Of a stretch of 64,000 bases of DNA, positions 210-34,245 are shown piece after piece; positions within the stretch are counted from its first letter, which is position 1, and the number at the start of each line of letters is the position of its first letter. The notes under the pieces were generated by a model that saw only the letters and a program-made list of their open reading frames with translations, was not told the DNA's origin and searched no databases. The position numbers and the translations under genes were made by a program. This stretch comes from Balanoglossus misakiensis (lineage: Eukaryota > Animalia > Hemichordata): positions 6,226,137-6,290,136 of the forward strand of contig CM082595.2 of assembly GCA_040954595.2 (NCBI GenBank), read 5' to 3'.

Positions 210-1259
210 CTTACTTTTCTTTTCAAATGCTTGACTCGGAAACAGATGAGTTTGGAGGTGTGATTTTATAAGTCTTGGAGATGCCATCCTTTCCATTGTC
301 TCTATGTTGTCAAACCTAAATAGAAAAAACAAACAAACAAACAAAGAATTGGCTTAAATTATACTGATTTAATGCAGTCAATCTTGTGTGTGATTCCAAT
401 AAGAATTCAAATTCTCTCAAAAAGGCGCTTGTGTGTGATTCCAATAAGAATTCAAATTCTCTCAAAAAGGCGCTTACTTCTGATGTTCGTCGTCATGGAA
501 TTCAAGGAAGGGTATCCGTTCCTCTTGTTTCATAATCCCATCATCGCCAAGCTGCTCTGGGTGCAGCACCATGTCAGCCATTTCCATGACCCAAGTTGTA
601 CCTGCAATGATGGTATAGTTGTTATTTAACAAGACATATGGCACAGCAAAAGGAAAGTATATGGTGTGTCCAGGAAGTTATTACATACCCGAGGCTTATG
701 AGTCCTAGAGGACAATGTGTGGGGACCAATTAGTTTCCGTGTATCATTCCTTCATGGCTAATTTATTTTGTGATACGATCCAATGTGGCAGCTAAATATA
801 AACATAAACAGTTACATATACATAACACCCCCCTTCCCTGCGTTTCGTTCAGCATGACTGATTTGGTCTGTTGGTGTGTTGGACTGAATGTACACTGTGG
901 ATACATCACATGACACTCATGATAGCAGCGACCTTTTCATTAAAAGTCAATATACTCATGCCTCTGATCTGATAGCGAACAGGCTAGACGTCCCTGCCTA
1001 TGGTGCTCTGTCTATGTTGAATCAAACCTGGCTTTCCACCATATCTATATACACATGTACTATACTTACCTTACTTCAAGGAAAACTTACCTGACTTTGG
1101 ATACGTGACGACAAACACGTCATCCTCCCTGCATTCGATGGAATCTCGGTTTTCCAGGACGCTTCGTCTCACCTGCTTGCAGAACAGAACGCCTTCGTAG
1201 ATGTACTGTCCGGGAACTCTATGAGGTTGTTCGCTGCAGGACGCGTCAAGTTTCTCCAT
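210..1259 (-). CDS. Cytosolic (SULT1-like) sulfotransferase, paralogue A; 3' part lies beyond the left edge
   Basis: Exons 1091-1259, 478-601, 210-315 with GT-AG boundaries in phase. Translation has the 5'-PSB loop TYPKSG/TTW and RLIKSHL with the catalytic His. Exon sizes parallel paralogue B. Confidence 0.92.
383..475. repeat. 45-bp direct tandem duplication abutting the exon-2 splice donor of SULT A
   Basis: cttgtgtgtgattccaataagaattcaaattctctcaaaaaggcg occurs twice in tandem. Confidence 0.9.
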
Positions 1260-1530
1260 CGCACTTCGGTGGGGGTCAACGCCACAGCCAAAGTCACCCC
1301 TTGATAGTTAAATTCGACACAGACCCCGTAGATAAATATGAGCACGGGGGAAGACAATTTCATATGTCTGTGATTCACTCGAAAGAGGAGGCACGGATAT
1401 CGCTTCCTATACCACCAAGCTGGAGGTTTCAAATGACCTCCTGAGTGTCAGATACTTCTTGTGGCAAAGGGGAATTCGGGTCAGTGGGGAGCGTGGCGCG
1501 GCGTACAGAGCAAGCGGAAAGATGTGTTCT

Positions 1531-1853
1531 CAAGGTTCTTAGATAGGATTTTATACACGTGGCCGATCATCAAGGTTCTTAGATAGGATTTTATTCACGT
1601 GGCCGATCATCCAGGTTCTTAGATAGGATTTTGTACACGTGGCCGATCATCCAGGTTCTTAGATAGGATTTTATACACGTGGCCCATCATCAAGGTTCTT
1701 AGATAGGATTTTATACACGTGGCCGATCATCAAGGTTCTTAAATAGGATGTTATACATGGCCGATGTCATCAAGGTTCTTAAATAGGATTTTATACACTT
1801 GGCCGATCATCAAGGTTCTTAGATAGGATTTTATACACGTGGCCGATCATCAA
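1531..1853. repeat. 40-bp minisatellite, 8 copies
   Basis: Unit caaggttcttagataggattttatacacgtggccgatcat starts at 1531, 1571, 1611, 1651, 1691, 1731, 1771 and 1811, with few substitutions and no spacers. Confidence 0.97.
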
Positions 1854-2777
1854 TTAAATTGTGACATATTATATAGACTTTGATTGTAGCATATTATTGT
1901 TTGATCCCACACGCGTGGTTATTTGCGAGTTATGATATCACGGTTTGACCCTTGACCCATCACTTTGACACCTTTTATTTGGTGCAAGAGTACCCTAGAC
2001 AAAACTACAACTGAAAATAAACATGTACAATATTTTTGTTGATGGTGGGCGTGGCTCCCAAATGTCTGAATTTTTCGAAGGCACTCTCTATTGGAGCATT
2101 ATTAAGAGAGCCAAGATCATAACAGTCGACGTTCTGTGGTGAGGGTACAATCCTCACATCACGTTCGGAGGAATACGGGCTTGAGATGGGGCAGAAACGA
2201 ATATCAGACAAGTTATTCATATAATAAAATCCATTTATTCAATTTGACATGTCTCAGACAATACCAGCTACCGATGTAGAAAACACCGTATAAAAAGTTT
2301 GCTGGACATTGACTTTCGAGAATTCCAAGAATTGTATAAAGTGTTTGAACTTCTTTAAAAATTTCCTTTAATACGCACCGTAAATGCAGTTTACTGTCAA
2401 CTGCTTTTAAAATTCTGCACCAATGGCAACATTTCCGTTTAATATGCTGAACGAAATAACGTTTCATCCCGGGACGCGAAAGGTGAACATCAGAGTTCGA
2501 ACATGTCACCTCGTACAAACAAAACCACGCGCAAAACCGCAAAGTGAATTACATGTACATAAACTCTTATGTGTGCATTTGTCGACGTGGGTTTGTTTAC
2601 ACAACGGTCAAGCGATTTTATCAGAAGCATGTAGCAGACGAGTCGGCGTCCGACATTTTATTCAGTGAGTGCGTCTCCGATAATCTGCTACCTTGAAATA
2701 GATGATTCAGTCTCAGAACTCTCGATTTACACATTTTTAATGATGCTTTCCTCCGTGGTTTGCTGTCTTCATTCTTG

Positions 2778-5700
2778 TCACCACTCAAACTCCAGATCAC
2801 TGTTGCCAAGACGTTCATGATAGTACTTCTCCATCTCTTCATTTTGAGCCACGGTGAAGTGGTTTTTCCAGTCACCGACTATACCTTTTTATTCAAGAGA
2901 GAGAAAATAAAGTTTTTAGCATTTATCCCTTGCATTCCATCTTATTGTGTTTTATGCTAATTCCAGGCAGTGTTAACCATGTCACGTGACCAAATTGTTT
3001 GTGGCGCCCACCTTTTCTCATAAATGGACTGACGGACGAATCCACGTCCGTCGCGTTTTCCCGGTTCACGGCTGGATTGTTCCTCATGTTCTCAAAGGAG
3101 CAATACTCCACAACTCTATCCACGGTCTGGCTGTCCGCCTTTATGCCCAGAAACGATGCTATCTTCTCCACTGTGCCCCTCTCGTCCTGCCAAAGTTAAT
3201 GAGACTTTTAACACTCACACATTACATCATTAGAAGCAAAAGCTGATGGGTTAAAAACGAAATACCCGATGAAAATACATGATACACGAAATAATGAATT
3301 TTAATGTATGTATGTATGTATGTATGTATGTATGTATGTATGTATGTATGTATGTATGTTTTAATGTATGTATGTATGTATGTATGTATGTTTTAATGTA
3401 TGTATGTATGTATGTATGTATGTATGTATGTATGTATGTATGTATGTATGTATGTATGTATGTATGTATGTATGTATGTATGTATGTATGTATGTATGTA
3501 TGTATGTATGTATGTATGTATGTATGTATGTATGTATGTATGTATGTATGTATGTATGTATGTATGTATGTATGTATGTATGTATGTATGTATGTATGTA
3601 TGTATGTATGTATGTATGTACATGTATGTATGTATGTATGTATGTATGTATGTATGTATGTATGTATGTATGTATGTATGTATGTATGTATGTATGTATG
3701 TATGTATGTATGTATGTATGTATGTATGTATGTATGTATGTATGTATGTATGTATGTATGTATGTATGTATGTATGTATGTATGTATGTATGTATGTATG
3801 TATGTATGTATGTATGCAGTGTGACAGAGGAAATATGTTTTGCAGTATTCATATATGTAGCTTAGCTGAAACTTTTCAGCCAAGCTAAGTAGTTTGCTGT
3901 TATATTTTGACAATTATTTGTATTTCACCTTCTTGACATCTTCATACTTGAGAAACAAAACATTGGGTTCATGACTGTGTTTCCACCATCCCAGATTATG
4001 ACTTGCCCAGCCACCCCAGTTAACTGAAAGAAAAAAGTCATTACAAGTTGAGATTAAATTAATTGCAGCTTGCCTTTTGCTCAATTTCAGAATGTACTAT
4101 CAACATTGTCACTTCACCTCAAAAAGGTGCCGGATCATCAACCCAGTGTTCAGGCCATGACCAGCGGGACTGTAAACTCAAAAAGGTCACCTCATCCGGG
4201 GATATCGCTTGCGCTCGGGATGACGACCGCCATTTTGATTTTCAGGTGAGTGGGGTTTTTATCACATTTTACAAGTGTACTAACAACTTACTATGGTCTT
4301 TCATGTACATTTGAAGGAAATCACTCCATGACCCCTTGTAATATCCAAAAGCAGATGTACTTTTATAGAAATAGTAATAAGATACAGCGTTATCTTTAGG
4401 ATTTCTGCCAACATATATAATCTGAAAATAACAAAAAAATGTGTGACATTACTTAGTATCAAAGTTACAAGAGAATAAAAATGATTACTGAAATTTCGGC
4501 AATCGGGTAAACCATGACGCACGTGTCAATCGCTTGAAGGGGGGGGGGGTGGCATTAGCATGCAGTCATTTTAATTGGGTTATCAATCCCCTACTCTGTG
4601 ATATCCCGGATGCAACTTTAAAGCGGAATGTCGTCAGAACTGCACATGCGCGAATTTTCTGCTCATAAACATACCACCGAGATTGTTCCCACTGTACACG
4701 ACACACGCTTTTCTACCAAAGAGTAATGCTATAGTGCTGGCGTATGTGTGCCGCACAGAATTTACACATTATTTAAGTTATTCGCCCATAGACACGTACT
4801 TTACTCTTCTTTTCAAATGCCTGACTTGGAAACAACTGTGTCGGAAGATGGGATTTTATGAGCCTTGGAGATGCCATGTTCTTCATGTTTTCTACATGAT
4901 CAATTCTTGATGAAAAAAAAACAAGAATAACGTTCACAATTTATGTAGGTGAATCAGTCTGATGATGTCTGAGGTGGAACTTCGCATTATCTTGGCAGTA
5001 TTAAACTACTTGTACGTTTCTTCTTCGGTTCCCTCTAAGCGTGCTGAAATGTCCTGTGTTAAGTTAATCAAAATAGCCTATAATTTAATTGTTGATCATA
5101 TCAGTGTTTCTGTGAACGTGTACACAGCCTTCGTGTAATATATACTATCTCCTCATTCCAAGTAAATGAATAAACAAAAAAATAAATTAATTAATTATTT
5201 AATTAATCCTAGATGCGTTACTTACGTATAGTTGTTCGGATCATGGAATTCCAGAAAAGGGATCCTTTCTTCTTGTCCAGTGATTCCCCCGTTCAGTTGT
5301 TGTGGATGCATCAGCAAGTCTGTCATAGCTAAGATCCATGTTGTACCTGTAAGATGATGAGGTTAGTTTTCCAGAGCAGTTCTTAAAATAGTTGGAAACT
5401 GTTGTCTGGTATTATTATTACACAAGTACGAGGAAGTGTTTGCATGAATGGGCACTTGCGATATGAAACTCGGGCACGATTTAAATCAAACCCTGGTGTC
5501 AGAATTATCCACAAAACGCTATATCTCGATTAGGTAAGGTAACATTCTATTCAACTAATGTCTAGAAAAATTTGTGCTTAGTAAAGAGGTGTCCTGATTA
5601 GAGAGGTGTTTGTAATAACAGGTTCCTCTAGCTAGATACCATAAAGTGAACATTTTGTGAGTTCATGCCCAGACTTCGTTTAACGACATATCCCTTGATA

Positions 5701-6389
5701 TTCCTAACAATAAACAGGTTCAGAGATCTTTACTCAAGAAACTCCGTCCATATTTAATGTATTATCCGGTTGGCCTGACCTATTGTACTTCTTTATTTGC
5801 AATCAAGTTCAGGTCAATTGCATGCCCCTGGTTTAGCTAATATTTAATCTCGACTGGAATCATGGAAGTACCACCTGCTAGAATAATGTTGAGAACATTT
5901 TACTCGCTTATTTTGGTACATCCTCCAATTGCAACACGTCGGCAGTCTGCAAAAGTTTTAGGTCTACAACTAGTCGACACTACTTCACTGTATTATACTC
6001 GAGAAAACTTCGGCCTATTTGCATAAGATTGTACACAATCGATGGAACGACATACAGCCCCTTTGATATGGAAAGAGGGCTGACCAGCAGTCTGTTACTT
6101 AATCACAAGGCTTTAGCGAATTTTGTTCGGTCAACACACACGACAATCATTTGACTAATCAACTCTAATACGTCCATGGACAATTAACGAGTGATCGCTC
6201 GAAGTCACACTTTTCATTTTTCAACTTGCCTGACTTCGGGTACGTCACAACGAAAACGTCATCCTCCCTGCACTCGATCGAATCGCGTGATTCCAAGACT
6301 CCTTGTCTCACAATCTCACTGAACAGAACGCCTTTGTAGACGTACTGTCCAGGCAGCCTGTGCTCGAAATCCTGCTCGCTCGCCTCCAT
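2778..6389 (-). CDS. Cytosolic (SULT1-like) sulfotransferase, paralogue B, complete (~297 aa, 7 exons)
   Basis: Exons 6230-6389, 5226-5346, 4800-4905, 4292-4421, 3929-4023, 3012-3186, 2778-2884 total 894 nt in frame. Motifs TYPKSGTTW, KSHL, RNPKDNAVSYY, LFLKYED, FMRKGIVGDWKNHFT. Confidence 0.95.
3304..3817. repeat. (TATG)n microsatellite, ~510 bp, in SULT B intron
   Basis: Near-pure tatg array; it explains the spurious YIHT/MYVC ORFs. Confidence 0.99.
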
Positions 6390-8125
6390 GGTCAAATCTC
6401 TTAGTACCTCCGTGGTCAATGCTGTTCATTCACTGTCACAGCTTCCGGGCCTACTGGCCTTGATCCTTGAACTCGGCCATTGTGACGCCAGGCCTGAGTA
6501 CCGGTAGATCATCTGCATACAACCGACCCAGTGTGGTACACTGTGGGAGGGTTATATCATAGGGAGCTTAGGAAATGTTGTTGTCTTATAAGACGGGAGT
6601 GACGTTGGGCGACCTAGGTCGTGTTTTCCACGATTATGTTTTTTACAGTTATCTACAACATCGACAACATAGTAAGAAATGACACATTGATTTTTTTTAA
6701 TTTTTTTTATTATCAATCTTAACATCAACAATACCAACAACAACATTTCCTAAGCTCCCAACGGTTATATAATTGATGGACGCGGCCTTGAGTTTTGGTG
6801 GTCGTAATGGTGGTAGGGGATCGTGAACTCCGAAATGTTCCAAATGAAACTGACAGCGCTCATATAGGCCTGCAGTTTCCCCTGTGCTAATGAGTGGAAT
6901 TGATCATGCACTCACCTGATGTAGGATTCAGCTCCCACCATCAGGGCTTATAAGGTCCATATTTGGGTTGCAATGTTTTAATTACTTTCTACTTGCAATG
7001 ATGGTATTGCATACTGAGTGATCGAGTGACAATTCTGTCAGAATTGTTTTTGTCTAGCCTAGATCAAGCCGTATTTTTTCCGCTTTGCTTCCAAAACTAG
7101 TTAAAAAGTTTTGTAAGCAAAGCAGAAAAATACGGATACATACTAGGCTAGTTTTTGTCATTCTTGGCAAATCTCCTATCAAAACACCGAACCATGGGAA
7201 CAAGCATGAATGCCAACTGGACACAAAAATGTCTGATTCAGTTGTCTGCTTTACAGGTTCATAATAGTTTCCAAGGTGAAGGGTTCTGGAATATGTGTTC
7301 AGTATATACAGGTTTCCAGATTTGACAAGGTTTGATTTAGGCACGTTTATTTTTAATGTAAAGATAAAGTTCTCGTTGATCTACATCACAGACTGGCACG
7401 AAAGACCAAACAAAAACAAAAAACACAATGTTTCCGAAATGTCTGGTGTACAGCATTCTGGTATCTTAAAAAAACTTCCCAATATTTAAAATTTGAACAT
7501 GAGTGATAAGAGTACACAATCACCAATTCACTATCGATTTCAATCAAATATTATTTTCTCACATAAACATTAATAACTGAACCATTATTTATGATTCATC
7601 TGCACCTGTTTGAATTACAGTGGTCTTTTTGGCAAGATGATGCAATACTGTTTCGCATGAAGTACTTCAAAATCCAGTAAGGCACACATTATTCCACTAT
7701 TAATTCCACTCCAGCATGGACTTTATAAAATATGAGACATTAGCAAGAAAGGCACATGCAAAGTTTCCTGAAAATTTCCCTGTTGCACTTAATGAAGGAT
7801 TTGTTTTAAAACAGCTGTTTATTTTAATGCATGTGGCACATGAGCAGTTTATACAAGCAGGTAATCTGTTCTGTGAATCATTTTACACGATAGTTTACAA
7901 CCACGATTATAATAAAATGTTTAAAGCCCTGATTCTCGCACATTTGTTGGCATGTATTTGACCGCTTGATTCAGTACAGTTCCCATCATTGCCACTGTAT
8001 CTTTGTCACTGTGAGTTGTGTACTATTTATTTCTTCACAATATTTACTTGTAGCAACTCTCAATAGCTACAAAACTTAAATAGTACAATACATTGACAAT
8101 GCTATGCCTTTCAATAGGCCACTTT

Positions 8126-8752: not shown

Positions 8753-11700
8753 TTAGTTTTCACCGGCTGATGTGAGAACAGAACTGACGATCGGACTACC
8801 AATCAGTGTTTTCCAAACGATTTCGCCTGTTTCGGTTGCTAGGGAATACATATGCCCATCAAATGCACCAATGTAGAGATATTTTCCATCTTCGCTGAGT
8901 CTTGGCGATGACCATATACCGTTCTCTGTGTCGCCTGTCTGCACCCTCCATAGGATTTTACCATCTGGGATTAAGGATAGTAAATAAATATTAATGTCGT
9001 TTCTGCACACAGTGGATTTAGTTTGTATTAATAATAAATAATTCCATTTTCGCTGGGATTATTTGATGTATCTTTAATGTAAAGAGCTAAGATTAACTGG
9101 AATGAAATAGAAGAACTTTGAAATTTGAGATTTTCATTTACAATACATATCTGCACTAAGTTTTAACTGGGTCAGCACCTCTGGGATAATGAATTGCTAG
9201 TCTTTGTTAGCCTATACAGACACATCATACATTACTTATAAACTTATATGTTGACAGCTGATTTTAGTCCAGACTAGGTTTCAAATATCAACTATAACAT
9301 GGCACTTTACAAGCCTACACACTTTGTTGAGAAGCTTCGTATTTGGCAGTTAAGCATGCTTTAGTGAGTAGAACTAGAAAAAGTAGTTGTTGAATAGAAC
9401 AAAATAGTGAAATAATCATCAAAATTACAGCTACAGTCCCTTTAAAGGTATACGGTCAACTATGGAAAATTAGCTATAGTTACAATGGCAAATTGAGATC
9501 TAGCCAATGACAGATTTTCAGTGGGTGGCACATGTGAAAAAAAGAGCGCCACCATATGTTCTTTAGAACGCTCAAATACGCCATTTCAGCCATATATGGG
9601 CGTATGTAAATTGGAGGTGACTGTACCAGGTATACCTTTAACTTGTCCATGTGTAAACACAACACATACATGTACTACTCACCAGAACTGTTAAGAGCCA
9701 CAATCTTGCCATCCCCAGAACCAATGTAGACAACATCGTTAGGTCCAATATAGGGTGATGACATCACATATCCTCCAATATCACTGACCCATTGAACTTC
9801 TAACGTGTCTTTGTGCAGGCTAATCAATTCACCTTCAGATGTTCCTGCAATCACATAGTTTAAAATTAAAAGCTATCATTCAAATTTTGGTGTGGAAAAA
9901 TTCACAACACTGCCACAATATTTCTCAAACAACCTGTACAATACTTTAAACAAATTTCATACTTTTGTAGTATAGTTGGATTAATATAAGTACAGTGTCC
10001 ACACAATGAAATCAAATGGCAGTATCTCACCAAAAATGATTCCATGAGCTGTCACTGCAGGTGAGGAGTTGATCTCAGCATTGACATTCACTTCTTTTAT
10101 AAGTTTACCATCCCTGGCTCTTCTCGCGTACACAAAGCCATCCAGACTGCAGTAGTATACAACTGAATTATCTTGACTTATCCTCGGAGAGGCAAAGAAC
10201 CCCAGCTCCCCTTGAGATGCAAACTCAAATAAAATCTTCCCTGAAATGATAGAGTTGAAAATTAACTCATACATTGTTACATTTTCTACTAGATTACAAG
10301 TGCTTTTCCCCAAAAGAATGTTGTTGTTCTCAGATGCATTGTTTTGTGAATTTGTGTTCTATTATTTTCTGTACCATGCTCACAAAGAATATTTCCGGTG
10401 AAAGTTCAATCACGGATAAAAAAGTAACATATGAATTTTAATTTTATTTTAATAACCAACATAATGCACCAGAACAGTTCAATGCTGGATAGAAAGTCCT
10501 TTATGAATTTTAAATTTTTATCATTGATAACCAAAATAATGTACCAAAACAGCTGCTTAAAATAATATCTTCCTGAAATTGAAGAATGTCTCCAGGACTC
10601 ACCATCGCTAGCATCAAACATAAACACATTAGGGATGTGTCCACCTCCCATCGCCGTGATGTAAACCACTTCTGTATCCTGAAATTGAGCCACCAACGGC
10701 GACGCCCATATCTCAAGTTTCACGCCTGTTTTCCACTTGAGTTCACCATTGGGTTTCAGTGCGTACATGAACCCATCCAGTCCACCGAAAAAGATGATGC
10801 CGTCTTTACCCAGTGCTGGCGAGCTGACTATGGCGAGGGCTGTAAAATTGATGAATCAAGACAATGTCACTGAAATATATTTGTATGTGTGTGGTCATTT
10901 GAACTATACATCTACTATGCACAGAATTACGATTGTGACAAATGTTCTATAGAATTATATAGCTTTCTGATGATTTTGACATTTCTACAGAGTTCATTAG
11001 AAATAGGATCGAAAACTACAAAGAAATCTACATATATCCTTAGAAGTTTTATTAACTTCAGTAGAAATTCCGTAGGCTATAGAATTCTAAAGATGTCAAC
11101 AGAATGTTTCTTTTCGCATATAGTTTTTGTTTATAATGTGGTCAATTTAAACTACTGTCGGGAAAAATACTGTCTATGTAGGACACAGTGAGTTTAACAC
11201 ACTTTAAATGGTGAATTCTCTTTTATTGGTAATGTCGTATTTCGGTTGTTGCTGCCCTCTAGTGGCAATTGTCATAAATTCTGGTGGTTTGCTGCCCTCT
11301 AGTGGCAACATCATAAATTCTGGTGGTTGCGAAAATAGGCTTGGCCACTGACATATTGATTTCTGTATATTCCAAATAACCCTAGATGAAAGTCAGAAGT
11401 CAGCAAGCACTCCACATGGTCTCTGCATCACTACAACTCGGCACTAATAGTGCGGATACCATTATCACTCTTATTTTACGCTATATTTTATAAAATCGAT
11501 GGCAAATTAATTTCCACATGGGTGGTGTTCACGCAGCAACTTAATGACTGTCATTTCAAATCACCGGTAAAAATATTTTGCGCACTTATCATCCATACTC
11601 GGTTTGGATTGAAACATGAGCAGTCAATTTCGTGAACATGACAAATTGGACGTCCGGAACAAATGGGCTACAATCAAATGATGCGTAAATAACCTTTCTG

Positions 11701-14700
11701 CAATCATAGCGGTTAGCCGATCATAATTTTTATTTTTTAATGAGCTCCACCCTTGATAAGACACAGCTGCTTCCGAATTGTGTTATCTTCCCCCTTTTTT
11801 TATTTTCACAATCATGTATCACTCTCGGAGGGTAGGCTATTGATCTATTCAAAGTTCAGGGCCCAAAGGACAGAATAATCGCGGCACATTCATTTGTTGG
11901 TCATTTTCATTTAAAGGGACAAAGTCGCTCTTTCGCTGCCCTTTTTCCATTAATAATGTTTGATACAAGATACTGTCTATGTTATTCTACATGGATATAT
12001 AGTGCATCAACGTTCAAACAAAATTGATGGAAAAGGGGCAGCAAGAGAGAGACTTTGTCCCTTTACTGCTTGAAACAATGACGGCCAAACCTGCTGTAAT
12101 GATGTTAAAGAGGAAAAATTAACGATGCACTAATTTTGATAAAAAGTAATAATTTGTTTCCGTCGGGGATTTGAAGTCAAGTTCACACAAGTGTGGGAGG
12201 AATACTCTTAGTTTATCATGGCCATGGTCTTACTGGACCTATCACATATGGGAATAATTTATTTTTTAATTTGCGACTGACATCGGCCCAAATTCAATGT
12301 ACAACTATAAAGGTCATTTTCGATAATACTTTCATTTTTTATATTGCTACAGCTTAATCTGAAAGGGGTTCAAGTCATCCAAATACCATCATCAGACAAA
12401 CTGGAGCAATATAAATGATAAAAAGCCATTTTCCATTAATGAGGCCATGTATTAAGTTGTTAAAATGCAAGTGAACATAATCAGCTGAAATTGTTATCCT
12501 TCAGGCTAGTTTAAGCTGAGCTGTCTATGATGTTCACAGATTCTGTCAAGGTTGCCAGTAATGAAGATGCCAAGTGTATCAGCTATGATCCAGGCTATGT
12601 CAAGGAAAGTTCAGCTTCATATCCAAATATAATTTTAAAATGTATTAATACAGTTGTGTTTGTCAGCCTGCTTTTCAATTTCATCAGTATTTGTGGATAT
12701 TTCTACATGGTCTTGCGAAATTTCTGACATTTCAAATAACAGGTTTTGATTTCTGGATTTGAATACTGAGAATAAACTATAATTATGTGCAATCTCGTTT
12801 TTTATCTCAGTGCATAGCCTAACAGCAAAACTGTAGTATATATCTTCTGGCACACCCCCAGATATTGACCAGGATTTACCCAGTCCATCAACACACTCAT
12901 ATTTGAAGCATCAGCAATGTTATTCTGGCTCAAAAATCTTTACATGTAATATGTTATCTCAAAACCAACAAAACACTCAGTGCTTATAATATCAGAAGAT
13001 TAATTTTTGAAATAATCTTCTTTTTATATTTCATATTTTTTTTGTATTTCAAGAGATCTATATTTTATTGAATAATCTTGCACACCAGACCTTTGGAGGC
13101 AAAGATTACTTACCTGTTTCAAAATCCCAAAGCTTACTGCCATCCTTGGCGTTCAGAGCATAGAAGTAACTGTCTTCACCACCAAAATATATCACTTTTC
13201 CATCAGGACTGAAGGTTGGACATGAGCCTAAGTCACTGTTACCTAAAATGAAAGAAATTTACACTAAGACTGTATTGATAATGTACACCAACTGTAATTT
13301 TTTTGAAAACCAGGATTGAAGTTTGTGAAATATGACCAATGAGAGTATCTATCATAATGCATTTTGTGCTACTACATGTCTGTCTTCAAAGCATATAACA
13401 TTTACAATACTGTACCAGAGAAATGTTAAAAGACACCAGTTTTAACACATTTTTTTAAAGTCAAATATATCTGTTTGCATTGCATTAAGTGTCATTGAAA
13501 CATTGCAGCTTCAATTTCCAGTTTCAAGGAGACATTGCAACTTTAATTGAGTTTCATTCAGACAATGAACATTTAAAATACAACAATGAGAATTATTTAG
13601 ACAATGCTGCTTTAACGCATCAAGTTTCATTGAGATTGCAGGGCAGGTTCAATACAGCCAGTTTTAATTCGAATATACCCTGTTGGGTGGCTTACTAAGA
13701 AGAAAATCTGCTTACATTGTGATGTTTGTTATTGCCTAGGGTCAGATTAGATTTAAGGAGCAACTTTTCCTTGACAGATGAAAACTTTGGTCTCTGAGGG
13801 ATATACTTTGATATTTTTGCAGAAATCATACCCGGAAGAAACTAACCAGATAATAGGGATTCTGAAATCCTTATTCAGTGTCTTGAGGCCATCATTAAAG
13901 TTCTTATCAGCACAAACAAGGCAGCATTGTGGCTGTCCTCTCAAACTACACTATTTGTCATTTTTTGTGATGACAGACTGTCGGTTTACATTTCAATACT
14001 CCAATCAGCACTCAATATCCGTCAGAGTTAGTTATTATAAAATCGAATTCTGATATAATAATCTTAACTGCTGTATGGGTGAATGAACACATAAGGGTCC
14101 AAGTCTCAAAGTTAAATTTTTGCGATAACATAATCCCGAATTGATTTTTGGCTTTAAAAAGTCAGCAATTTCCAGTTTTTACCCACTTCAACTGTTAAGG
14201 TGAGATACTTGGCTTTATGACATGAATGGTTTTTGCAGGTTCCCATGTTGTTTTTGACGAGACTATGGCTTTGAAAAATATACAGGAAGCATGCAGTCCT
14301 ATATGTACCTAAGAAATGACTTTACTGGCTTAGTTCATAATCTATCCTGTGTGAACATGAAAACTGTCTACTATCGGGCATTAAAGGTATACGGTCACCT
14401 ATGGAAAATTAGCTATAGTTACCATGGCAAATTGAGATCTAGCCAATCACTGATTTTCAGCGGGTGGCACATACAAAAAAAAGAGCGCCACCATATCTTC
14501 TTTAGAACACTCCGATACGCCATTTCAGCCATATACGGGCTATGTAAATTGGAGGTGACTGTTTACCTTTAAATTTAGAAACTAAACATAACGGCAATAG
14601 CAGTCACGAAATGTGATAAAACAGGCATCACAGGCGTCAGAAACTCTTATCCTCTATATATGGCGAGAGTATTAGCCAAGGAAGGGCTTAGCTGTGATGG

Positions 14701-17700
14701 CAACATGACCTGCCTTAAGTACCATCTGATGTGAAATCCATTCTGGATAACACTGTGTTTGCATTCAAGGGGACCTCAATCACACAAAATTAAATTAATT
14801 TCATGCATTCTTGCTACTTACCTTGTAAAATCATGTCTAATTCAAAATTAATTCTTGCTACTTACCTTGTAAAATCATCAGTCTAATTCAAACTTAACAA
14901 ATTGGTCAATAATGCAATCATTATTTTTCAAAAGCCATTATGCTGCATCTATTATTGAAAAATATAGCTCAGCACATTAACTTACTTGTTTCGAATTTCC
15001 ATTTTATCTTCCCAGTTTTTGCCTCTAATGCATACATATGACTGTCTTCGGCGCCAAAGTAAATCATTTTGTCACGCGCGTCAACTTTCTCATAAAGTAT
15101 TACTTTGCTTCCCGGCTTGTCGGGTTTCTTCCAAGTTCTTTCTTCTGGTTCGAATTCTATGTTATCTTTCTTGCTGTATTTGGAGTGTTTCCCTTCAAAG
15201 CATTCTTCATCATCGTCTTCGCAAGAGCCGGTTCCCGCACCCTCGCCGCTTACAAATTCACCTCTCTTCACCCTGTAGTCGGAGATAAAGCGCACCACAT
15301 CATGCAGCATGAACTGGCCAGGGTGCTTGGCCTCGAATCGGTCCATGTCAGCGTCGAGTTTGTCCAGGTCGATTTCCGGGTTGAGTTCGATGTCATTCAT
15401 TTCTTCAGCGTTGAGCAGGACTTCGAGAGACTGGAAGTTGGTCAGAATGTGGTCGTCGCTGCTGGACGACGTCAGGACCACGACGTCCTGATAGATCGCC
15501 CATCGCAGGACAACGTTTGCAGGAGTGCGTTGTTGATTGTACGCCACTGACTGAATTAACGGGTTTTCCAGGATAGGATTTACACTTATGTACATGTTGA
15601 AGGTCCACTGGCGGCCAAGGGGACTGTATGCTATGTACTGAATATTATGCTGCTTGCAGAACTGGCGAATTTCAGTGTCCCGGTGGTAAATATCCATCCA
15701 GTTTTGCACGATGGAAATCGGGGCCTTTGTGAAACTCAGCAGTTCGTTCAACTGCGTGATGTCGAAGTTACTGACACCGAGACTACGGATTATTCCGTCC
15801 TTCTGCAACTTTTCCAGAGCCCTCCACGAGTCATGCCAGGTGCCTTCCGGACCCTCCGGATCGCACGTCAGCAGGAAATCATCGCAGTCAGCAGCATGGA
15901 TCAGGAAGACATCGATATAGTCGGTCTGCAGTTTCTTCAGACTTTCCTCCACTGATTTTAACGTGGAACTATAGCCGTGGTTCTTTGGATGGAGCTTATC
16001 AACGATGATGATTTCGGATCGCGGCAACCCGGACTCCTTAATTGCTTTCGCTAAAATTTCCTCCGAGTCAGGATAACCCTGCGCCGTGTCAAACATTCTG
16101 AAAATTGAAAGAAGTCAACCCAACGTTAAAGGAAATACTCCAAAAACATTTTTTGGCATTTTAGGGATTAGATGGTTGGACATTTTTGTGTCATAATGTG
16201 AAGATCAATCCCATCACATCAGCAAACTTCACACATCCACTTAAAATTCAATTTGGTAATCCATTCAGAGAGGTTTCATTGTTTTTCACAATTAATTATA
16301 ACAGTCTTTATTTTTTATCTGCATATGGCCATTATTACAAATAATTGCAGTTAATTACATTGGATGCTTAATTACCAATAATCTTATAACAATGCCCCCA
16401 AATTATAACCATCAATAAGGTGCAATTATGGTGATTTAGATTAAATGGATCAATTCTTGTGGAATTTGATATAGAGTTCATCCCTTTCTGTACATAAATA
16501 AGAGGAATAAATAGCTTTTATTCCCCCAATTTTAACCACCCTTTTCCTCCTTTAGAGAAATCATGCCAAACCCTTCTAAGAAACACATATAATGAACAAA
16601 TGATCAAATAAATGAATGAACAAATGATTGAATTGCATAAATGAATAAATGAATAATAAACAATTCATAAAACAGCAACAACCAAAAGGATAATACACAC
16701 AGATGACCACACAAAAAGATGGGACCTAAAACCTGCACAATATAGTTCATTGGAGACCAACACCATAATTATAAAATAAATTTACAAAATGGACAGGAAA
16801 ATATCACAATGTTCACGTGCATCCCAGTTTGGCAAGCCCATATGGTAGATAACTTAATCAAATTCTATTTTTGTATTGCGAATACATCCGATATGACGGC
16901 ACAGCTGCAGGTGGTAAGATTGAAAGCACACTTGAGAACCATTTTCCCCAATCCACTTAAGTCAATCTGCTCAGAAGGTTTTCTCCGCTATCTGTGATCT
17001 ATTACCCAGATATGAAACAAATGTTCCGGTGAAAATTATGCCCTGTGTGGAATTGTGAATACATATGTACACACTTGCTGGAGAAGCTTTCATCTCATAT
17101 TCCTATCTTTTCGTTCGACACAGTGATAGGTTACAAGTTTTGTAATGATTACAGTGGTATGATTTATTTTGAATTTTTACTTATAGATATCATTGGGCGT
17201 ACCTGTAGCCTACTTCCAGAGCTCTTTTGACCGCTTTGTAGGTCTTGGAATCCAATAATCCGGTTCCAAATCCTAACACTGGAACTAAATATAAAGAGCA
17301 CAGATTGACATTAGAAAGTGGGTTTATGATTATCCTGGACCCAAAAACAAAAAAGCAGTGTAAGTTGTAAATATTGTCAAATATTAATTATTTGAAAAGT
17401 GCAAATTTAATTATGTGAATTTTGCAATTTTTCTACCCCAGAAAATGTGTACTTTAGTTTTATGCTCATAACATACATACATACATACATACAATAATAC
17501 ATACATACATGCATGCATATATATATACATCGCCCACATGCAACAGTAATACAAGGTTAAACCCTTGTCAATACATGGCCCTATCTTGTGAATTACCTTT
17601 TTCCTTCTTTAAGAATTCTTTCATTATTTATGATAAATTTTCAGGAGCAAAAAGTCCCTTGCCATGAAATCCTCACATCGATATTTAAAAATTCATAATG

Positions 17701-20700
17701 TTTCAAGGCAGAATTGACTAATCAATGTAAAGTATGATTGACGCAACTCCCCTGAAAGAAGACAGATATCTGGTGTATGTCAACATTCAGTTGGAGATGT
17801 TTTCATCCCTGCAGAGATGAATTAATGGCTGCCTGAGAGACCGACATCATCGCTGAGATTATTCTAATTCACATGGCCGACGTAATTACGAGAAATGACG
17901 ACAGGGATGAAAGGAAAAAACCCTGGAGATACCACTCGGTAGGATCTTTGATTAATATCACCATGGAAACTGAGATAGAGGTAGATTAACATTGCCACGG
18001 AAACTGAGATTATCACAGAAGAGCAGCTGCATGAGAACACGCACATTTCCAGTAAGAAGATTCTGTTTTGATAATGAAAGCCAAAGACACTTTTATAAAG
18101 AGAAGAAAATATGAGTTAACACTTATGCGAGCGATTTAACTTGATCAAATGCTACATGACAGGAGACATGCAAGTGTGGTATACATTAAAGTGTACCTAC
18201 ACAGATGCAAGTATATGTGTCCCACAATGCCACTGCCCTTGGGTTTGAGTGACTTTATGCAACATTTTCTTTAAAAAGGTCCATCGGCTATTATTAAAGG
18301 TATACGGTCACCTATGGAAAATTGGCTAGAGTTACCATGGCAAATTGAGATCTAGCCAATCACAGATTCTCAGTGGGTGGGCACACGCGAAAAAAAAGAG
18401 CGTAGCCATATGTTCTTTAGAACACTCAAATACACCATTTCTGACATATATGGGCGTATGTAAATTGGAGGTGACTGTATACCTTTAACTTTCTGGGTTT
18501 TTTTTCAATCTATTTCATCTGTATATCAACTATACACTTTCTTGTTCTTCTCCCCATAACATGCTAAACTACCAGCTTTCTGATTGTTAAACATATGTGT
18601 TACAACCATTGCTATTTTTGAAGAAAAAAAATGAATTCAGGCCTGGCCTCAATTCAACAGTTAACAACCGCGCCTGATGGACCTTTAATAAAAGTTTAAA
18701 TTTCATTACACAACTTTATATTATTTTTACTTATTATTTTTTTACTATTGTCATAAAAAAATGTCATATCCACAGTGGGTTTCTGGTAGTTCACTGAAAG
18801 TTCATCAAAGGTCAGCACAATTACAAAGGATAAAAGTGTGTAAAACTTGAATAGTTCAACCTACTCGTGTATCCTGTATTGAGTAGTTTATCTGCCGGTT
18901 GCTGTATCATGACGTTTGCGTTCTGTGTCTCGTTGGCATTGTTCTCTCTCAGAACAGTGGACAGCTTCTTGTTCTTGGCCCTTTTCTTGCACTGGATTTT
19001 CTCTGGCTGCTGCTGGATGTAGTCTAAGTACAGGTTGACGCTCTCTTCTACCTGCACGTCCGGGTCTATGTCCGCTTGGTCTAGCGCTTCGTCGTGGTCG
19101 AACACGTAGAACCACATGCTGATTGCGATGTTGGGCGACCCGTAGGAGCGCACCTACAGGACGTATACTGCACGTATTTAGCTTCACTTGATTATAAGGT
19201 CATTAATCAGGAAATTTGTTCTTTAATCCATCACTCAACAAGCACACTATATACATGACAAATCAGTGTTCTCCCCAGGATTTTGGAACAGCGTGGTGGC
19301 TAATTTGCATAACAATATATGCAATTGTTATGTGCTCTATTGTCTTCTCAAAATTAAAGAGTGGTGGCCACCATGCTTTAATTGCTCTGGGGAGAACAAT
19401 GCGATGTACATACATACAGACAGCGGTAACCACCACATTTGGGGAAGGGAGAAGTAATCTGAGGTAAAACGCTGTGCTGTGTTCAAGCATACAACAAAAC
19501 AGTCATGCCTAGGTCTTGAACCCACAATTCATTTTTTTTAGTTTGTTATCCCAGGCCACTGGACCATAATGCCTCTTCTGTAGTTTTCATCACAGTAGTG
19601 CTGTGATGACGATGACAGTTGTAGAAGTAGATCAAGGGATGGGCACTTCATCTGGAAATGGCCCTTACCGGTAGGCAGTACGGTAGCACAAATTATGCTA
19701 TGCCAACTGCAGATCTTACCTGATGCCACCAGAACATAGGTACGTACAACTGATCGCCCGCTTCGATTTCTACCTCGTAGTAGTCAAGATCGGCCATCTT
19801 GGGGAATTTCAGAAGATCGACTTTTTCCGGCACGATAGGCGAAAGTCCCGGCAGGGTAGTGAAACTGTTGGCATACGCTTTGTCGCTGTCCCTGGGGTGG
19901 GCCAGGAGGAAGATTTTGCGACCGGAGAGAACGGTGATGATGTTTTCGTAACCGTCGTGGTGGAACACATAGCTGGTGTTGCCCGAGCTGAAGAGCAGAC
20001 TTGCCGCGTCAATCTGAGGGTTGACGTAAAGTAAAGAAGAGAAACTGAGGATGTTAAACCTGTATGAGTTTTAGTACTTCATTTCTTCAGATAGTGGATA
20101 CTGGAAAACTTGTACAGCGAGTATCACTGTCACAAGTGTGCAAAACCAGCAGAAGTCATCATGTTTTATAAATCTGAGGCCTACAGCCTCAGTTGCTGGT
20201 CCACTTTCGAATTAGCTAAGTCCAGAGTAGCTTTACGAAGACATTCTATAGATATCTATAGAATATTGTATAGCCTACATGTCAGATAGGCCTCAGTTGC
20301 TGGTCCACTTTCGAATTAGCTAAGTCCAGAGTTGCCGTACGAAAACATTCTATAGATATCTATAGAATTGTATAGCCTAATGGATTTCATAGAATTTTAT
20401 TGAACTTCTATGGACATCTTCAGATTTCAACGTAGTTTAGGACGCTTAATTAGCTAAGTCCAGAGTGGCCTTACGAAAACATTCTATAGATATCTATAGA
20501 ATTCTATAGCCTAATGGATTTCATAGAATTTTATCGAATTTCTATGGACATCTTCAGATTTTGATGTAGTTTCGGACCCTTTTTCTACTGAATTCTATAG
20601 AAGCATCAAAATCTATAGAATGCTATAGAACTCTAGAACATGTTTTGTACTGGAGACCCTACCTTTGAATAAAGTTCTTCACATTCGTGAACAGCAGGAA

Positions 20701-21154
20701 TGAATGCGTCGTACAGCAATCCACTCATAGGGAAGGGAGAGTCCAGATAGATCGGCTTCTCCTTGTAAGTCTTCAGGAAATCTTTCAAATACATATTCAT
20801 TCGTGGCGGGTGCTTGTCGTCCCACACTTTCCTCAAATCCACCCGGAAAACTTCCTCGCCGAAATTCTCTCTGAGGTAGTCTTCGTCCTTCCACAGGTGT
20901 GTGGCCGGCCAGTGTTTTGCAGCCCCTTTCATAAGCAGTGGCCTGCTCGCTCGCACATAGTTTGTGTAGAAGTCTTCCCCGCTCGGTGGCGTGTCCACAA
21001 CATCAATGACCCCTTTGATTGGCGGTTTGTGGGCGCCGAAAGGCTGAAGGTGGCCCCGCGGAAAAACCACATGTCCACTAGTACTGTCCTCATTTGCATA
21101 TGAAAATATGCACAGATGAAGGAGTAGGCAGACCGCTTCACGTAAGATTAGCAT
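8753..21154 (-). CDS. Secretory-pathway fusion protein: signal peptide + JmjC 2OG/Fe(II) oxygenase + aldo-keto reductase + 8-blade PQQ/BamB-like beta-propeller (~1072 aa, 10 coding exons)
   Basis: Exons 20663-21154, 19720-20013, 18865-19153, 17203-17284, 14986-16097, 13114-13242, 10603-10839, 10031-10240, 9683-9844, 8753-8964 total 3219 nt, all GT-AG and in phase. JmjC: FHHDGYEN...GDQLYVPMFWWHQV. AKR: LNTGYT/IPVLGFGT, DTAQGY, VDKL, LIH, LGVSNF, AYSPLG. Propeller: repeated SSP...YFG..DG..YAL...G...W units. Confidence 0.9.
9446..9637. mobile_element. MITE family A (TTAA target, AGG...CCT termini; Kolobok-like non-autonomous)
   Basis: ttaa|aggtatacggtcaac...ggtgactgtaccaggtatacct|ttaa; near-identical copies elsewhere in the window. 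Confidence 0.85.
10940..11112. repeat. Dispersed 'tctataga'-rich repeat, reverse-complement relative of 20460-20640
   Basis: gtaggctatagaattctaaagatgtc...agaatgttt mirrors aaaacattctatagatatctatagaattctatagccta. Confidence 0.6.
11251..11305 (-). promoter_or_regulatory. Two tandem CTCF-consensus motifs
   Basis: gctgccctctagtgg (reverse: CCACTAGAGGGCAGC) at 11251-11265 and 11291-11305, inside a ~40-bp tandem duplication. Confidence 0.5.
11915..12062. mobile_element. MITE family B, internally deleted copy
   Basis: ttaa|agggacaaagtc...gactttgtccct termini shared with the longer copies at 31696 and 59699. Confidence 0.8.
14385..14568. mobile_element. MITE family A
   Basis: ttaa|aggtatacggtcacc...ggtgactgtttacct|ttaa. 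Confidence 0.88.
14807..14892. repeat. ~45-bp tandem duplication
   Basis: attcttgctacttaccttgtaaaatcat(ca)gtctaattcaaa occurs twice. Confidence 0.8.
18298..18484. mobile_element. MITE family A
   Basis: ttaa|aggtatacggtcacc...ggtgactgtatacct|ttaa. Confidence 0.88.
19264..19401. mobile_element. MITE family E (cagtgttctccccag TIR, possibly hAT-derived)
   Basis: TIR cagtgttctccccag...ctggggagaacaatg; inverted copy at 26042-26186. Confidence 0.7.
20186..20640. repeat. Degenerate tandem repeat (3 partial units, tctataga-rich)
   Basis: aattagctaagtccagagt...acattctatagatatctatagaat recurs at ~20211, ~20314 and ~20448. Confidence 0.8.
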
Positions 21155-32664: not shown

Positions 32665-32708
<44 letters not shown>

Positions 32709-33718
32709 CCCCTCTCTATCTGTAGCATAGTATTCGTCCAACCACATGGAAAGACGTGAAAACATTACGAAGTTTTACAAACCTTCCTATGATTCTCATG
32801 GACATAGTGACGCCTTTGGAAGCACAGACGGCCATAGAACATGGCGTCCAGGGTATCATAATATCCAACGAAGGTGGGAAAACAGTTGATTCGCTTCACG
32901 GAACAGTAAGTGAGACTCTAAAATTATTCCATTTTGGTCAATGGAGTGAATAAATATAAATTAATTTCCGGGATGATTCTCGAAGACTGCATTTTGGTAT
33001 AAATCTTCTAAGTGCATGCATAGTGGGGGGACACAAAGAAAATGTTTTAATTCTGGATTTCTGAATTTTACATTGTCACCTTTCTTACGGTCAACGTGAG
33101 TTGCCACGCGGCATCAGAGATCTGTCGCTCGACTCGTCACACGGCACCAGTGTCCATCGTGTTTGCTGTGATAATTGTTGCATTTAAACCCAAATACATG
33201 TACTTGATCAAAACAGACGATGCATTGTGCAGCGTATGTGTGTTGTGTGTGTCGCCGTATATTGTGTTAAAGTTTGCTCAGTCCGTCGTAATAAGTCGGT
33301 TCATATATTCACCAGCACCCAATGGATGAAAAAATACCCAAAGGGAAGTGAATATAGGCTTATACGTTTAACAATCCATAACTCTCTCGCTGTCGAGGAC
33401 TGTTGTTCTGTATAATACTTCTCTTTCAACATGATTGTGAATTCTGTCAATTCCCTTGGTAAAATTACAGTATAACTTAATTTTCTACTGAAATAGCTGG
33501 ATATACTTCCTGATATATTGTCCGCTGTGCAAAACAACATTGAGGTCTACGTCTACGGCGGTGTGCGATCGGGGAGTGACGTCATGAAAGTGCTGGGCCT
33601 CGGTGCGAAGGCGTGTTTCGTGGGCCGTCCTGTGTTGTACGGACTCTGCTACCAGGTGAGAGTACAGTCATTAACAAACAACAACAACAACAACAACAAT
33701 GACAACAGAAGCAGCAGC

Positions 33719-33752
<34 letters not shown>

Positions 33753-34245
33753 CACGTCCAAAACTGCCATCATCGATTAAACATTTTGGGCAGTTTACGT
33801 ACGTCGACAAAAAACCTGTGATTTATGATTCATAGTATGTAAATTGTGAACTCTGCATTTTGCGTAATTTTTTTTCACCTTTAATTTTTGGCAGGGCGAA
33901 GAAGGCGTTATTCAGGTTTTGTCTCTTCTGAAGAATGAACTCGCCAAATGCATGAGCAGCACGGGTGAGGAGTTTCGAGTTGCTTTTCTCTACATCGCAG
34001 CACAGAATGACGGACCAAAGTGCTTGGGCAAAAATATTTAAGAACCAGTTGATATAATGTGTAACGTTTCTGAAACGACAAATTTAAGTGTTGCCTTTTT
34101 TGCATCCCATGGCAGAATATTTCATAGTTCGGATAATGACTAAACCGTTCTCCGTTTGCTTTCTCTGCCAGGCTGCACTTCTATTGACGAAATCGGTTCA
34201 TTCTGCGTCGTACGGTCATCCTCTGTCCACGATGACGACGACTGA
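30206..34245 (+). CDS. FMN-dependent alpha-hydroxy acid oxidase (HAO/glycolate oxidase family) homologue with N-terminal membrane anchor and degenerate active site (~399 aa, 9 coding exons)
   Basis: Exons 30206-30318, 30483-30617, 30833-30978, 31264-31437, 32161-32309, 32726-32905, 33497-33655, 33895-33964, 34172-34245 total 1200 nt in frame. Family motifs LEDFE, DLSTTIL, WLQIY, RRAEKAGY, GGVRSGSDV, GAKACFVGRP, GEEGV. Probable non-coding first exon ends at 29225. Confidence 0.88.
30993..31212. repeat. (ATTC)n grading into (AGTC)n microsatellite
   Basis: Direct inspection. Confidence 0.97.
31464..31570. mobile_element. 107-bp foldback MITE with 9-bp target-site duplication (Mutator/MULE-like)
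   Basis: 50-bp inverted arms with 1 mismatch around a 7-nt loop (gtcgcct); flanked by tccaattca at 31455-31463 and 31571-31579. Confidence 0.88.
31696..32054. mobile_element. MITE family B (TTAA target, long inverted arms; Kolobok-like)
   Basis: ttaa|agggacaaagtctctctc...gagagactttgtccct|ttaa; nearly the whole element is an imperfect palindrome. Confidence 0.88.
32544..32718. repeat. (TC)n/(TGTC)n low-complexity tract ending at a splice acceptor
   Basis: Direct inspection. Confidence 0.9.
33673..33751. repeat. (AAC)n microsatellite
   Basis: Direct inspection. Confidence 0.95.

What the first reader, a model, noticed from the sequence alone, without database searches (positions are those of the whole stretch)
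8753..21154. Single secreted polypeptide fusing JmjC oxygenase, aldo-keto reductase and an 8-bladed PQQ-like propeller
Seen: ten exons join in one 3219-nt frame. Both domain junctions fall inside exons: the last JmjC exon ends with the AKR start LLNTGYT, continuing as IPVLGFGT, and the large AKR exon runs on into the first propeller blade. A chimera of neighbouring genes is therefore unlikely. The JmjC iron ligands (H-x-D...WWH) and the AKR tetrad (D, Y, K, H) are present. Eight blades plus a closing strand are countable. Known: JmjC hydroxylases and AKRs are mostly separate nuclear or cytosolic proteins. Inference: this may be a luminal hydroxylate-then-reduce enzyme with a substrate-binding propeller. 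I do not recognise this architecture from characterised proteins but cannot search to confirm novelty.
Basis: partly seen in the sequence, partly recalled or inferred. Interest (0 to 1): 0.9.

Follow-up and report, generated by a model that had tools for sequence, protein, structure and literature searches.

The report
Ancient secretory oxygenase-reductase-propeller fusion enzyme
This acorn-worm-like gene encodes one protein joining an iron oxygenase domain, a carbonyl-reductase domain and a propeller domain, an uncharacterised layout also found in sponges, corals and amphioxus, which likely carries out a two-step chemical edit inside the secretory pathway on a still unknown substrate.

Summary
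The gene is real. Ten GT-AG exons give a 3219-nt frame, 1072 aa, 73% identical end to end to an unnamed Ptychodera protein. The same order (signal, JmjC, aldo-keto reductase, 8-bladed propeller) occurs in three hemichordates, amphioxus, stony corals, anemones and two sponges. The JmjC-AKR pair also occurs in a choanoflagellate. Coral contigs too short to hold introns carry the whole frame, so a chimera of neighbouring genes is very unlikely. Iron ligands and the AKR tetrad are intact. Two cysteine pairs are invariant, 11 of 33 relatives end in KDEL-like signals, and 29 of 33 have a hydrophobic N-terminus: likely ER/Golgi lumen. New points: the AKR has lost both basic NADPH-phosphate residues; all three two-domain combinations exist; AlphaFold gives no fixed JmjC-AKR packing (pTM 0.52). 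Best guess (0.45): the oxygenase makes a carbonyl and the AKR reduces it, as in KanJ/KanK or the poppy P450-AKR fusion. The substrate and all activities are untested. Four literature searches found no description. Known domains, uncharacterised ancient architecture.

The parts
21095..21154 (-). Predicted signal peptide, aa 1-20 (start of exon 1)
   Evidence: Only hydrophobic segment of the protein; best 13-aa Kyte-Doolittle window 2.17; Ptychodera P0001 has the same YA-NEDST boundary. No SignalP run.
20663..21154 (-). Exon 1, aa 1-164: signal and N-terminal half of the JmjC (Cupin_8) domain, with invariant C158
   Evidence: Cupin_8 E 1.3e-6; tblastn 84% to P0001
19720..20013 (-). Exon 2, aa 165-262: JmjC core with H182, D184, H261, N188, K197 and Tyr179
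   Evidence: Cupin_8 E 2.9e-24; best PDB sequence matches JMJD5 E 9e-9, then TYW5, JMJD7, FIH
18865..19153 (-). Exon 3, aa 263-358: end of JmjC with invariant C317, 33-aa linker, first AKR residues
   Evidence: tblastn 75% to P0001; JmjC-to-AKR gap about 30-42 aa in relatives
17203..17284 (-). Exon 4, aa 359-385: first strand and helix of the AKR barrel
   Evidence: tblastn E 2.5e-9 with P0003
14986..16097 (-). Exon 5, aa 386-756: AKR (D389, Y394, K420, H453; C457-C464 loop; altered cofactor loop T595-S596...H602), acidic low-confidence linker aa 624-716, first propeller repeat
   Evidence: Aldo_ket_red E 1.3e-48 and propeller hit in one ORF; alignment to YvgN and trypanosome PGFS; pLDDT under 50 at P0001 663-751
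13114..13242 (-). Exon 6, aa 757-799, propeller repeat
   Evidence: tblastn 84% to P0001
10603..10839 (-). Exon 7, aa 800-878, propeller
10031..10240 (-). Exon 8, aa 879-948, propeller
9683..9844 (-). Exon 9, aa 949-1002, propeller
   Evidence: 73% to P0001
8753..8964 (-). Exon 10, aa 1003-1072 and stop: last repeats and closing strand; no KDEL
   Evidence: no extra tail exon found with tails of 5 relatives

Best explanation
The locus is one gene encoding signal peptide, JmjC oxygenase, aldo-keto reductase and 8-bladed propeller, and the protein likely works in the ER/Golgi lumen as a two-step redox relay in which the oxygenase would turn a C-H next to N or O into a carbonyl and the tethered reductase would reduce that carbonyl to an alcohol. 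The net result would be a deamination, dealkylation or epimerisation, most likely on a glycoprotein or glycan passing through the secretory pathway. The propeller would be a non-catalytic docking module. Shown: gene structure, domain order, catalytic residues, conservation. Inferred: lumenal location, disulfides, coupling of the two activities. Guessed: direction of the reductase, substrate class.
For: One frame with junctions inside exons. Three-domain order in 40 of 270 proteins held, many of them redundant, from 3 hemichordate genera, Branchiostoma, 4 coral genera, 2 anemones and 2 sponges. JmjC and AKR trees recover the same main groups, which fits long co-inheritance. H-x-D in 26 of 29 JmjC rows, distal His 27 of 29, 2OG Lys and Asn 25 of 29; AKR Asp 29 of 30, Lys 30 of 30, His 29 of 30. 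C158 and C317 in 29 of 29 and C457 and C464 in 30 of 30 rows; among 88 AKR frames in 80 metagenome loci only 9 have the cysteine loop. Hydrophobic N-terminus in 29 of 33 and KxEL ends in 11 of 33. Closest solved JmjC proteins act on proteins or tRNA. Precedents: KanJ (2OG dioxygenase, amine to ketone) with KanK (NADPH reductase), PMC5533434 passages; the P450-AKR fusion REPI that inverts reticuline, PMC11522673 abstract and passages.
Against: No activity or substrate data. The JmjC-AKR model has pTM 0.52 with a low-confidence linker, so no fixed interface or channel is predicted (30-sequence alignment). Each domain can be lost or inactivated alone: JmjC+propeller in Hydractinia, AKR+propeller in a Branchiostoma paralogue, iron ligands lost with AKR intact in three unnamed proteins, AKR Tyr and His lost in Lingula. 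The cofactor loop lacks both basic residues in the window protein, which may favour NAD(H) and the oxidising direction. Tyr179 replaces the Ser seen at this place in JMJD5 and in 17 of 29 family rows and could change 2OG binding. The window protein has no KDEL.
Confidence: 0.45

Rival explanations
1. Hydroxylate, then oxidise: the JmjC domain installs an alcohol and the AKR, using NAD+, oxidises it to a ketone or aldehyde, for example a reactive handle for cross-linking or cleavage of a matrix component.
For: YvgN PKSIKEHRIIEN aligns to TSSSSDDHILTN, so Lys and Arg are both gone. The Arg site is His in 23, Asn in 6 and Arg in 1 of 30 family rows, while 4 of the 8 algal-looking cysteine-loop AKRs could be read as Arg, 1 as His, 3 unread. 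A review table lists P. furiosus alcohol dehydrogenase K249G/H255R under NAD-to-NADP changes and a xylose reductase set with R277Y under NADP-to-NAD (PMC5817062, passages); that these positions equal H602 is recalled, not aligned here. An alcohol is the usual JmjC product.
Against: His at this site is not rare: 17 of 88 ordinary AKR frames by a rough regex. 21 of 30 family rows keep Lys or Arg at position 596. NAD(H) preference does not fix the direction.
Confidence: 0.2
2. The AKR services the oxygenase rather than its product: it recycles dehydroascorbate to keep iron ferrous in the oxidising lumen, or removes an aldehyde by-product such as formaldehyde.
For: Rat 3alpha-hydroxysteroid dehydrogenase reduces dehydroascorbate in vitro (PMC13466231 passages; that it is an AKR is recalled). 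No fixed interface is needed.
Against: Three relatives keep an intact AKR on a JmjC that has lost its iron ligands, and amphioxus has AKR+propeller without JmjC, so the AKR has a job without its own oxygenase. The review calls such activity a side activity.
Confidence: 0.14
3. The two enzymes act on the same client or in the same compartment but not in sequence; fusion only co-targets and co-expresses them, with the propeller as shared anchor.
For: All three two-domain combinations exist; flexible linkers.
Against: The JmjC-AKR linker length is held near 30-42 aa, and the pair is kept from a choanoflagellate to amphioxus.
Confidence: 0.18
4. The model is a chimera of two or three neighbouring genes.
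For: No transcript of this locus was seen; AATAAA hexamers occur in introns 1, 4, 5 and 6, as expected in AT-rich DNA, so shorter isoforms are possible.
Against: Junctions lie inside exons; contigs of 3.4-3.8 kb hold whole 1060-1071 aa frames; L001 is an uninterrupted frame from JmjC end to propeller end.
Confidence: 0.03

Closest known systems
JMJD5 / JMJD7 / TYW5 / FIH group of JmjC hydroxylases (Pfam Cupin_8)
   Same: H-x-D...H triad, Asn and Lys for 2-oxoglutarate; best PDB sequence matches.
   Different: Signal peptide, invariant cysteine pair, fused AKR and propeller, Tyr three residues before the first His in deuterostomes. Orthology to any one of them was not tested.
JMJD8 (ER-lumen JmjC protein; PMC5684140, abstract and section 6 read)
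   Same: Signal peptide, lumenal JmjC of the same broad clade.
   Different: JMJD8 is JmjC-only and has His in place of the iron-binding Asp; this protein keeps Asp and carries two more domains.
AKR5-like reductases (B. subtilis YvgN, trypanosomatid prostaglandin F synthase, DkgA/B)
   Same: D-Y-K-H tetrad, barrel fold (Foldseek TM 0.86-0.89 over target), about 31% identity.
   Different: Below NCBIfam cut-offs (135 of 425 bits for DkgA); cysteine loop after the catalytic His; altered cofactor loop; secretory targeting. The database name 'Prostaglandin F synthase' on P0010 looks like an automatic transfer.
REPI/STORR of opium poppy (P450-AKR fusion; PMC11522673 abstract and passages)
   Same: Oxidase fused N-terminal to an AKR; oxidise-then-reduce logic.
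   Different: Heme P450 rather than 2OG/iron JmjC, recent plant fusion, small alkaloid substrate, no propeller. Analogy only.
KanJ / KanK of kanamycin synthesis (PMC5533434 passages)
   Same: 2OG dioxygenase makes a ketone from an amino sugar, a reductase makes the alcohol.
   Different: Separate bacterial proteins; no homology tested or claimed.
BamB / AASDH(ACSF4)-type PQQ-like propellers
   Same: 8 blades, PF13570 190 bits over a cut-off of 133 for P0001, PQQ_2 hits.
   Different: No quinoprotein score (66.6 of 480 bits), no adjacent cysteines, no AMP-binding domain of AASDH.
Uncharacterised database family (e.g. XP_070560885, XP_002737509, XP_066296046, XP_065176613; an ESM Atlas cluster of 65 members)
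   Same: Same architecture; the window protein is a member, nearest Ptychodera flava.
   Different: None of note; these records carry no functional study that my searches found.

Membership tests
JmjC 2OG/Fe(II) oxygenases (Cupin_8 clade) | H-x-D/E...H iron triad | tested here: met
   H182, D184, H261 align with JMJD5
JmjC 2OG/Fe(II) oxygenases (Cupin_8 clade) | Lys and Asn for 2-oxoglutarate | tested here: met
   K197 and N188 align with JMJD5 GRK and QQN; 25 of 29 rows. Their role in JMJD5 is recalled.
JmjC 2OG/Fe(II) oxygenases (Cupin_8 clade) | Ser/Thr three residues before the first His | tested here: not met
   Tyr179 in the window and in 7 of 29 rows, all deuterostomes; Ser in 17 of 29. 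KDM4 has Phe here (recalled), so activity is not excluded.
JmjC 2OG/Fe(II) oxygenases (Cupin_8 clade) | Double-stranded beta-helix fold | tested here: inconclusive
   Confident strand-rich model, but the rows shown by Foldseek were all propellers and AKRs and the second-look searches did not run
JmjC 2OG/Fe(II) oxygenases (Cupin_8 clade) | 2OG-dependent hydroxylation | not testable with these tools
   Needs an assay
JMJD8 | JmjC-only, His in place of the iron-binding Asp | tested here: not met
   Asp184 and three domains against PMC5684140 section 6
Aldo-keto reductase superfamily | Asp-Tyr-Lys-His tetrad | tested here: met
Aldo-keto reductase superfamily | (beta/alpha)8 barrel, Pfam PF00248 | tested here: met
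   166 bits on exon 5; Foldseek
NADPH-specific AKR1-5 enzymes | IPKS...R..EN cofactor loop | tested here: not met
   LTSS...H..TN in the window; Arg in 1 of 30 family rows
PQQ quinoprotein dehydrogenases | Family score and vicinal disulfide | tested here: not met
   TIGR03075 66.6 against 480 bits; only C764 and C909, neither conserved. The disulfide criterion is recalled.
BamB/ACSF4-type propeller domain | Eight Trp-docking repeats closing a ring | tested here: met
AASDH (ACSF4) | AMP-binding and carrier domains before the propeller | tested here: not met
   No such Pfam hit in the 12 proteins
ER-resident soluble proteins | C-terminal KDEL-type signal | tested here: not met
   Window ends AGEN; 11 of 33 relatives have KxEL
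REPI/STORR | Cytochrome P450 module | tested here: not met
   The oxidase is JmjC; works-like comparison only

The most novel reading that the evidence does not exclude
A pre-animal, lumen-adapted JmjC-AKR relay installs an unknown modification (deamination, epimerisation or a carbonyl handle) on secreted glycoproteins or glycans, with an AKR that uses NAD(H) in the ER. It was kept from choanoflagellates and sponges to acorn worms and amphioxus and lost from vertebrates and the common model animals, which is why the chemistry has been missed.
Probability: 0.3. Interest if true: 0.87.

Novelty: new variant of a known kind. Interest (0 to 1): 0.68.

Why it matters
A fusion kept from a choanoflagellate to amphioxus points to a conserved secretory-pathway reaction that nobody seems to have named. 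It would be a second kind of lumenal JmjC protein, with a full iron triad, and a disulfide-bearing lumenal AKR, a setting in which I recall no characterised AKR. The fusion names the partner enzyme, and Nematostella, Hydractinia and amphioxus allow knock-outs, so the question is testable now. The natural one- and two-domain variants are ready-made controls.

Tried and rejected
Expression of this locus: no RNA holder listed; no evidence either way. No whole genome is held, so paralogues in this species and a genome search could not be checked. The complex prediction of JmjC with AKR was not available; no verdict. Second-look fold searches for the JmjC domain did not run. A profile search with alignment A3 returned only its own first sequence at E 1e-60 among 7994 scored candidates: uninformative. 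The 50%-cluster search was swamped by long propeller-repeat proteins: 137 of the 270 proteins I held match the propeller only, so weaker JmjC-AKR members may be hidden. No vertebrate, arthropod, nematode, mollusc or echinoderm fusion appeared among named hits; this is weak evidence of absence. An eleventh exon giving a KDEL-like tail was sought with the last 45 aa of 5 relatives and not found. The propeller tree did not finish. P0077, a multi-AKR nematode protein, is unrelated to the family. 'Prostaglandin synthase' and 'AKR1B10' labels were rejected as automatic. A biosynthetic cluster with the neighbours (sulfotransferases, hydroxyacid oxidase, a second oxygenase) was considered; synteny could not be tested, so it is not claimed. 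Three look-ups of earlier scan findings returned nothing. Papers seen only as listings: PMC3296651 and the four; none is about this protein by title or abstract start. A search for R238H with AKR terms gave 0 papers.
Full report
Gene structure. The region is an intron-rich animal gene on the minus strand. Ten exons joined at GT-AG sites give 3219 nt and 1072 aa with no internal stop. Pfam finds Cupin_8 in exons 1-2, Aldo_ket_red plus a first propeller repeat in exon 5, and propeller repeats in exons 7, 8 and 10.

It is one gene. A search with exon 5 for longer proteins returned 16 hits; 8 have all three domains and 4 have JmjC plus AKR. The spliced product aligns over 1084 columns at 73% to Ptychodera flava P0001, 62% to Glandiceps, 60% to Saccoglossus and 37-38% to corals. 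These NCBI entries are gene models, but other records look like transcripts. Logan contigs of 3424-3820 bases hold complete frames of 1060-1071 aa, which leaves no room for introns. Locus L001 is one uninterrupted frame from the JmjC end through AKR and a ShK-like domain to the propeller end, followed by 1.6 kb without a matching frame. The Oscarella and Stephanoeca records are labelled 'type:complete'. That these come from RNA is my inference. No run was listed for this locus itself.

Range. All three domains: hemichordates (3 genera), Branchiostoma (most with a doubled AKR), stony corals (Oculina, Pocillopora, Acropora, Montipora, with an added ShK-like domain), Nematostella, Actinia (two paralogues) and the sponges Sycon and Corticium. 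JmjC+AKR: octocorals, Oscarella, Lingula, the choanoflagellate Stephanoeca and an unnamed eukaryote-like record. JmjC+propeller: Hydractinia. AKR+propeller: a Branchiostoma paralogue with its own signal peptide and KDEL. Of 270 proteins held, my domain profiles class 40 as three-domain, 25 as JmjC+AKR, 9 as JmjC+propeller and 9 as AKR+propeller; many are near-duplicates, and some two-domain records are truncated. The Atlas has a 65-member eukaryote cluster at score 0.97, possibly this protein's own. Separate trees of JmjC (29 rows) and AKR (30 rows) both give hemichordates, amphioxus, homoscleromorph sponges, octocorals and stony corals as supported groups; deep branches are weak and three rows are long. 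The window protein is sister to Ptychodera (99/95 and 99/98). No outgroups were included, so the trees show congruence, not a single origin.

Location. The only hydrophobic stretch is aa 1-20. A hydrophobic N-terminal segment occurs in 29 of 33 relatives checked; the four misses are two near the threshold and two that look truncated; my control was a single cytosolic-type AKR. Eleven of 33 end in KxEL (8 exact KDEL), but these are amphioxus, octocorals and one unnamed record, so few independent lineages. Four cysteines are invariant: C158 and C317 in the JmjC part (29 of 29), C457 and C464 in a loop after the AKR His (30 of 30). The loop is absent from the solved AKRs aligned and from 79 of 88 AKR frames in the metagenome loci. 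The 9 that have it are the coral contig and eight algal-looking AKRs, four of them with a ShK-like domain. Disulfides are inferred; I could not read distances from the models.

Active sites. The JmjC core is closest to JMJD5, then TYW5, JMJD7 and FIH. Triad, Asn and Lys are kept. Deuterostomes have Tyr where JMJD5 and most relatives have Ser. The AKR tetrad is intact and the domain resembles YvgN and trypanosomatid prostaglandin F synthase at about 31%, below every NCBIfam cut-off. Its cofactor loop differs: the Arg site is His or Asn in 29 of 30 rows, the following Glu is never kept, and the window protein also lacks the Lys. Engineering data tie such changes to NAD(H) use (PMC5817062 table passages; PMC4580623 lists K232G and R238H of PDB 1A80 as specificity-changing), but His also occurs in 17 of 88 ordinary AKR frames by a rough pattern. 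I rate an NAD(H) shift as plausible, not shown. The propeller has eight blades; its 42 conserved positions are mostly the repeat's Gly, Trp, Ser and Pro, with no quinoprotein signature, so it is likely a binding module.

Structure. The AlphaFold model of P0001 (26 sequences) has mean pLDDT 80.7 and pTM 0.49, with about 90 disordered residues before the propeller. The octocoral JmjC-AKR protein P0010 (30 sequences) gives pLDDT 83.8 but pTM 0.52 and a low-confidence linker. The domains are well folded and their relative position is unresolved. This counts against a rigid channel, weakly. Both models are of relatives, not of the window protein.

Mechanism. Fusion of an oxidase to an AKR has a clear precedent in poppy REPI (PMC11522673), and a 2OG dioxygenase that makes a ketone for a partner reductase has one in KanJ/KanK (PMC5533434). 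I therefore favour a relay: oxidation next to a heteroatom, collapse to a carbonyl, reduction to an alcohol (0.45). The substrate is most likely a glycoprotein or glycan, because the closest JmjC enzymes act on macromolecules and the protein sits in the secretory pathway; this is inference. Rivals: hydroxylation followed by NAD+-linked oxidation (0.2), co-targeted but unlinked activities (0.18), ascorbate recycling or aldehyde clean-up (0.14; PMC13466231), chimera (0.03). Relatives with a dead JmjC and live AKR, or the reverse, show that the halves can work apart.

Novelty. Each domain is known. The architecture is in databases only as uncharacterised proteins. Four full-text searches found no description: JmjC + aldo-keto reductase + fusion + signal peptide (1 unrelated paper), cupin + AKR + PQQ + coral (0), six locus ids (0), and a five-term architecture search (4 unrelated). 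Subscription journals and supplementary tables were not searched, and genome or proteome supplements may list these genes. JMJD8 shows that a lumenal JmjC is not without precedent (PMC5684140, abstract and section 6). Verdict: real, ancient, uncharacterised; a new variant of the oxidase-reductase fusion kind; interest 0.68.

Noticed in passing
window 35666-43313 (+): A second predicted secreted 2OG-Fe(II) oxygenase gene with two tandem prolyl-hydroxylase-like domains (2OG-FeII_Oxy_3 at 37006-37284, E 3.5e-11, and 39648-39947, E 1e-3), a signal-like start near 35672 and an acidic stretch at 42514-42897. Exons not assembled.
   Followed up: partly
window 477-6425 (-): Two tandem cytosolic-type sulfotransferase genes directly downstream; Sulfotransfer_1 hits at 2926-3195 and 2781-2888, and near-identical first exons at 6168-6425 and 1074-1307.
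   Followed up: partly
window 30560-34040 (+): FMN-dependent hydroxyacid oxidase-like gene (FMN_dh).
   Followed up: partly
window 52826-52990 (+): Exon-like frame that I recall as resembling the C-terminus of N-acetylneuraminate lyase; no Pfam hit.
   Followed up: no
window 55800-61800 (-): M13 (neprilysin-like) peptidase exons.
   Followed up: partly
window 9442-9638, 14381-14576, 18294-18492: A roughly 200-bp element repeated in three introns of the gene at 68-92% identity, MITE-like; also 104-134 bp tandem repeats at 20186-20581.
   Followed up: no
L002-L009: Algal-looking stand-alone AKRs with the same cysteine loop; four carry a ShK-like domain before the AKR, and L003 and L004 an N-terminal hydrophobic stretch; one has a VHL-like C-terminal domain, one a long membrane region. 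A wider lumenal AKR subfamily seems to exist.
   Followed up: partly
P0011, P0012, P0100 (unnamed records): JmjC domain with iron ligands lost, fused to a largely intact AKR; they group with anthozoan proteins in the AKR tree, while Hydractinia keeps JmjC+propeller without AKR. Possibly complementary decay of two paralogues; the source taxa are unknown.
   Followed up: partly
P0147 and P0192: The choanoflagellate and an unnamed JmjC-AKR protein share a cysteine-rich C-terminal domain in place of the propeller, with no Pfam hit.
   Followed up: no
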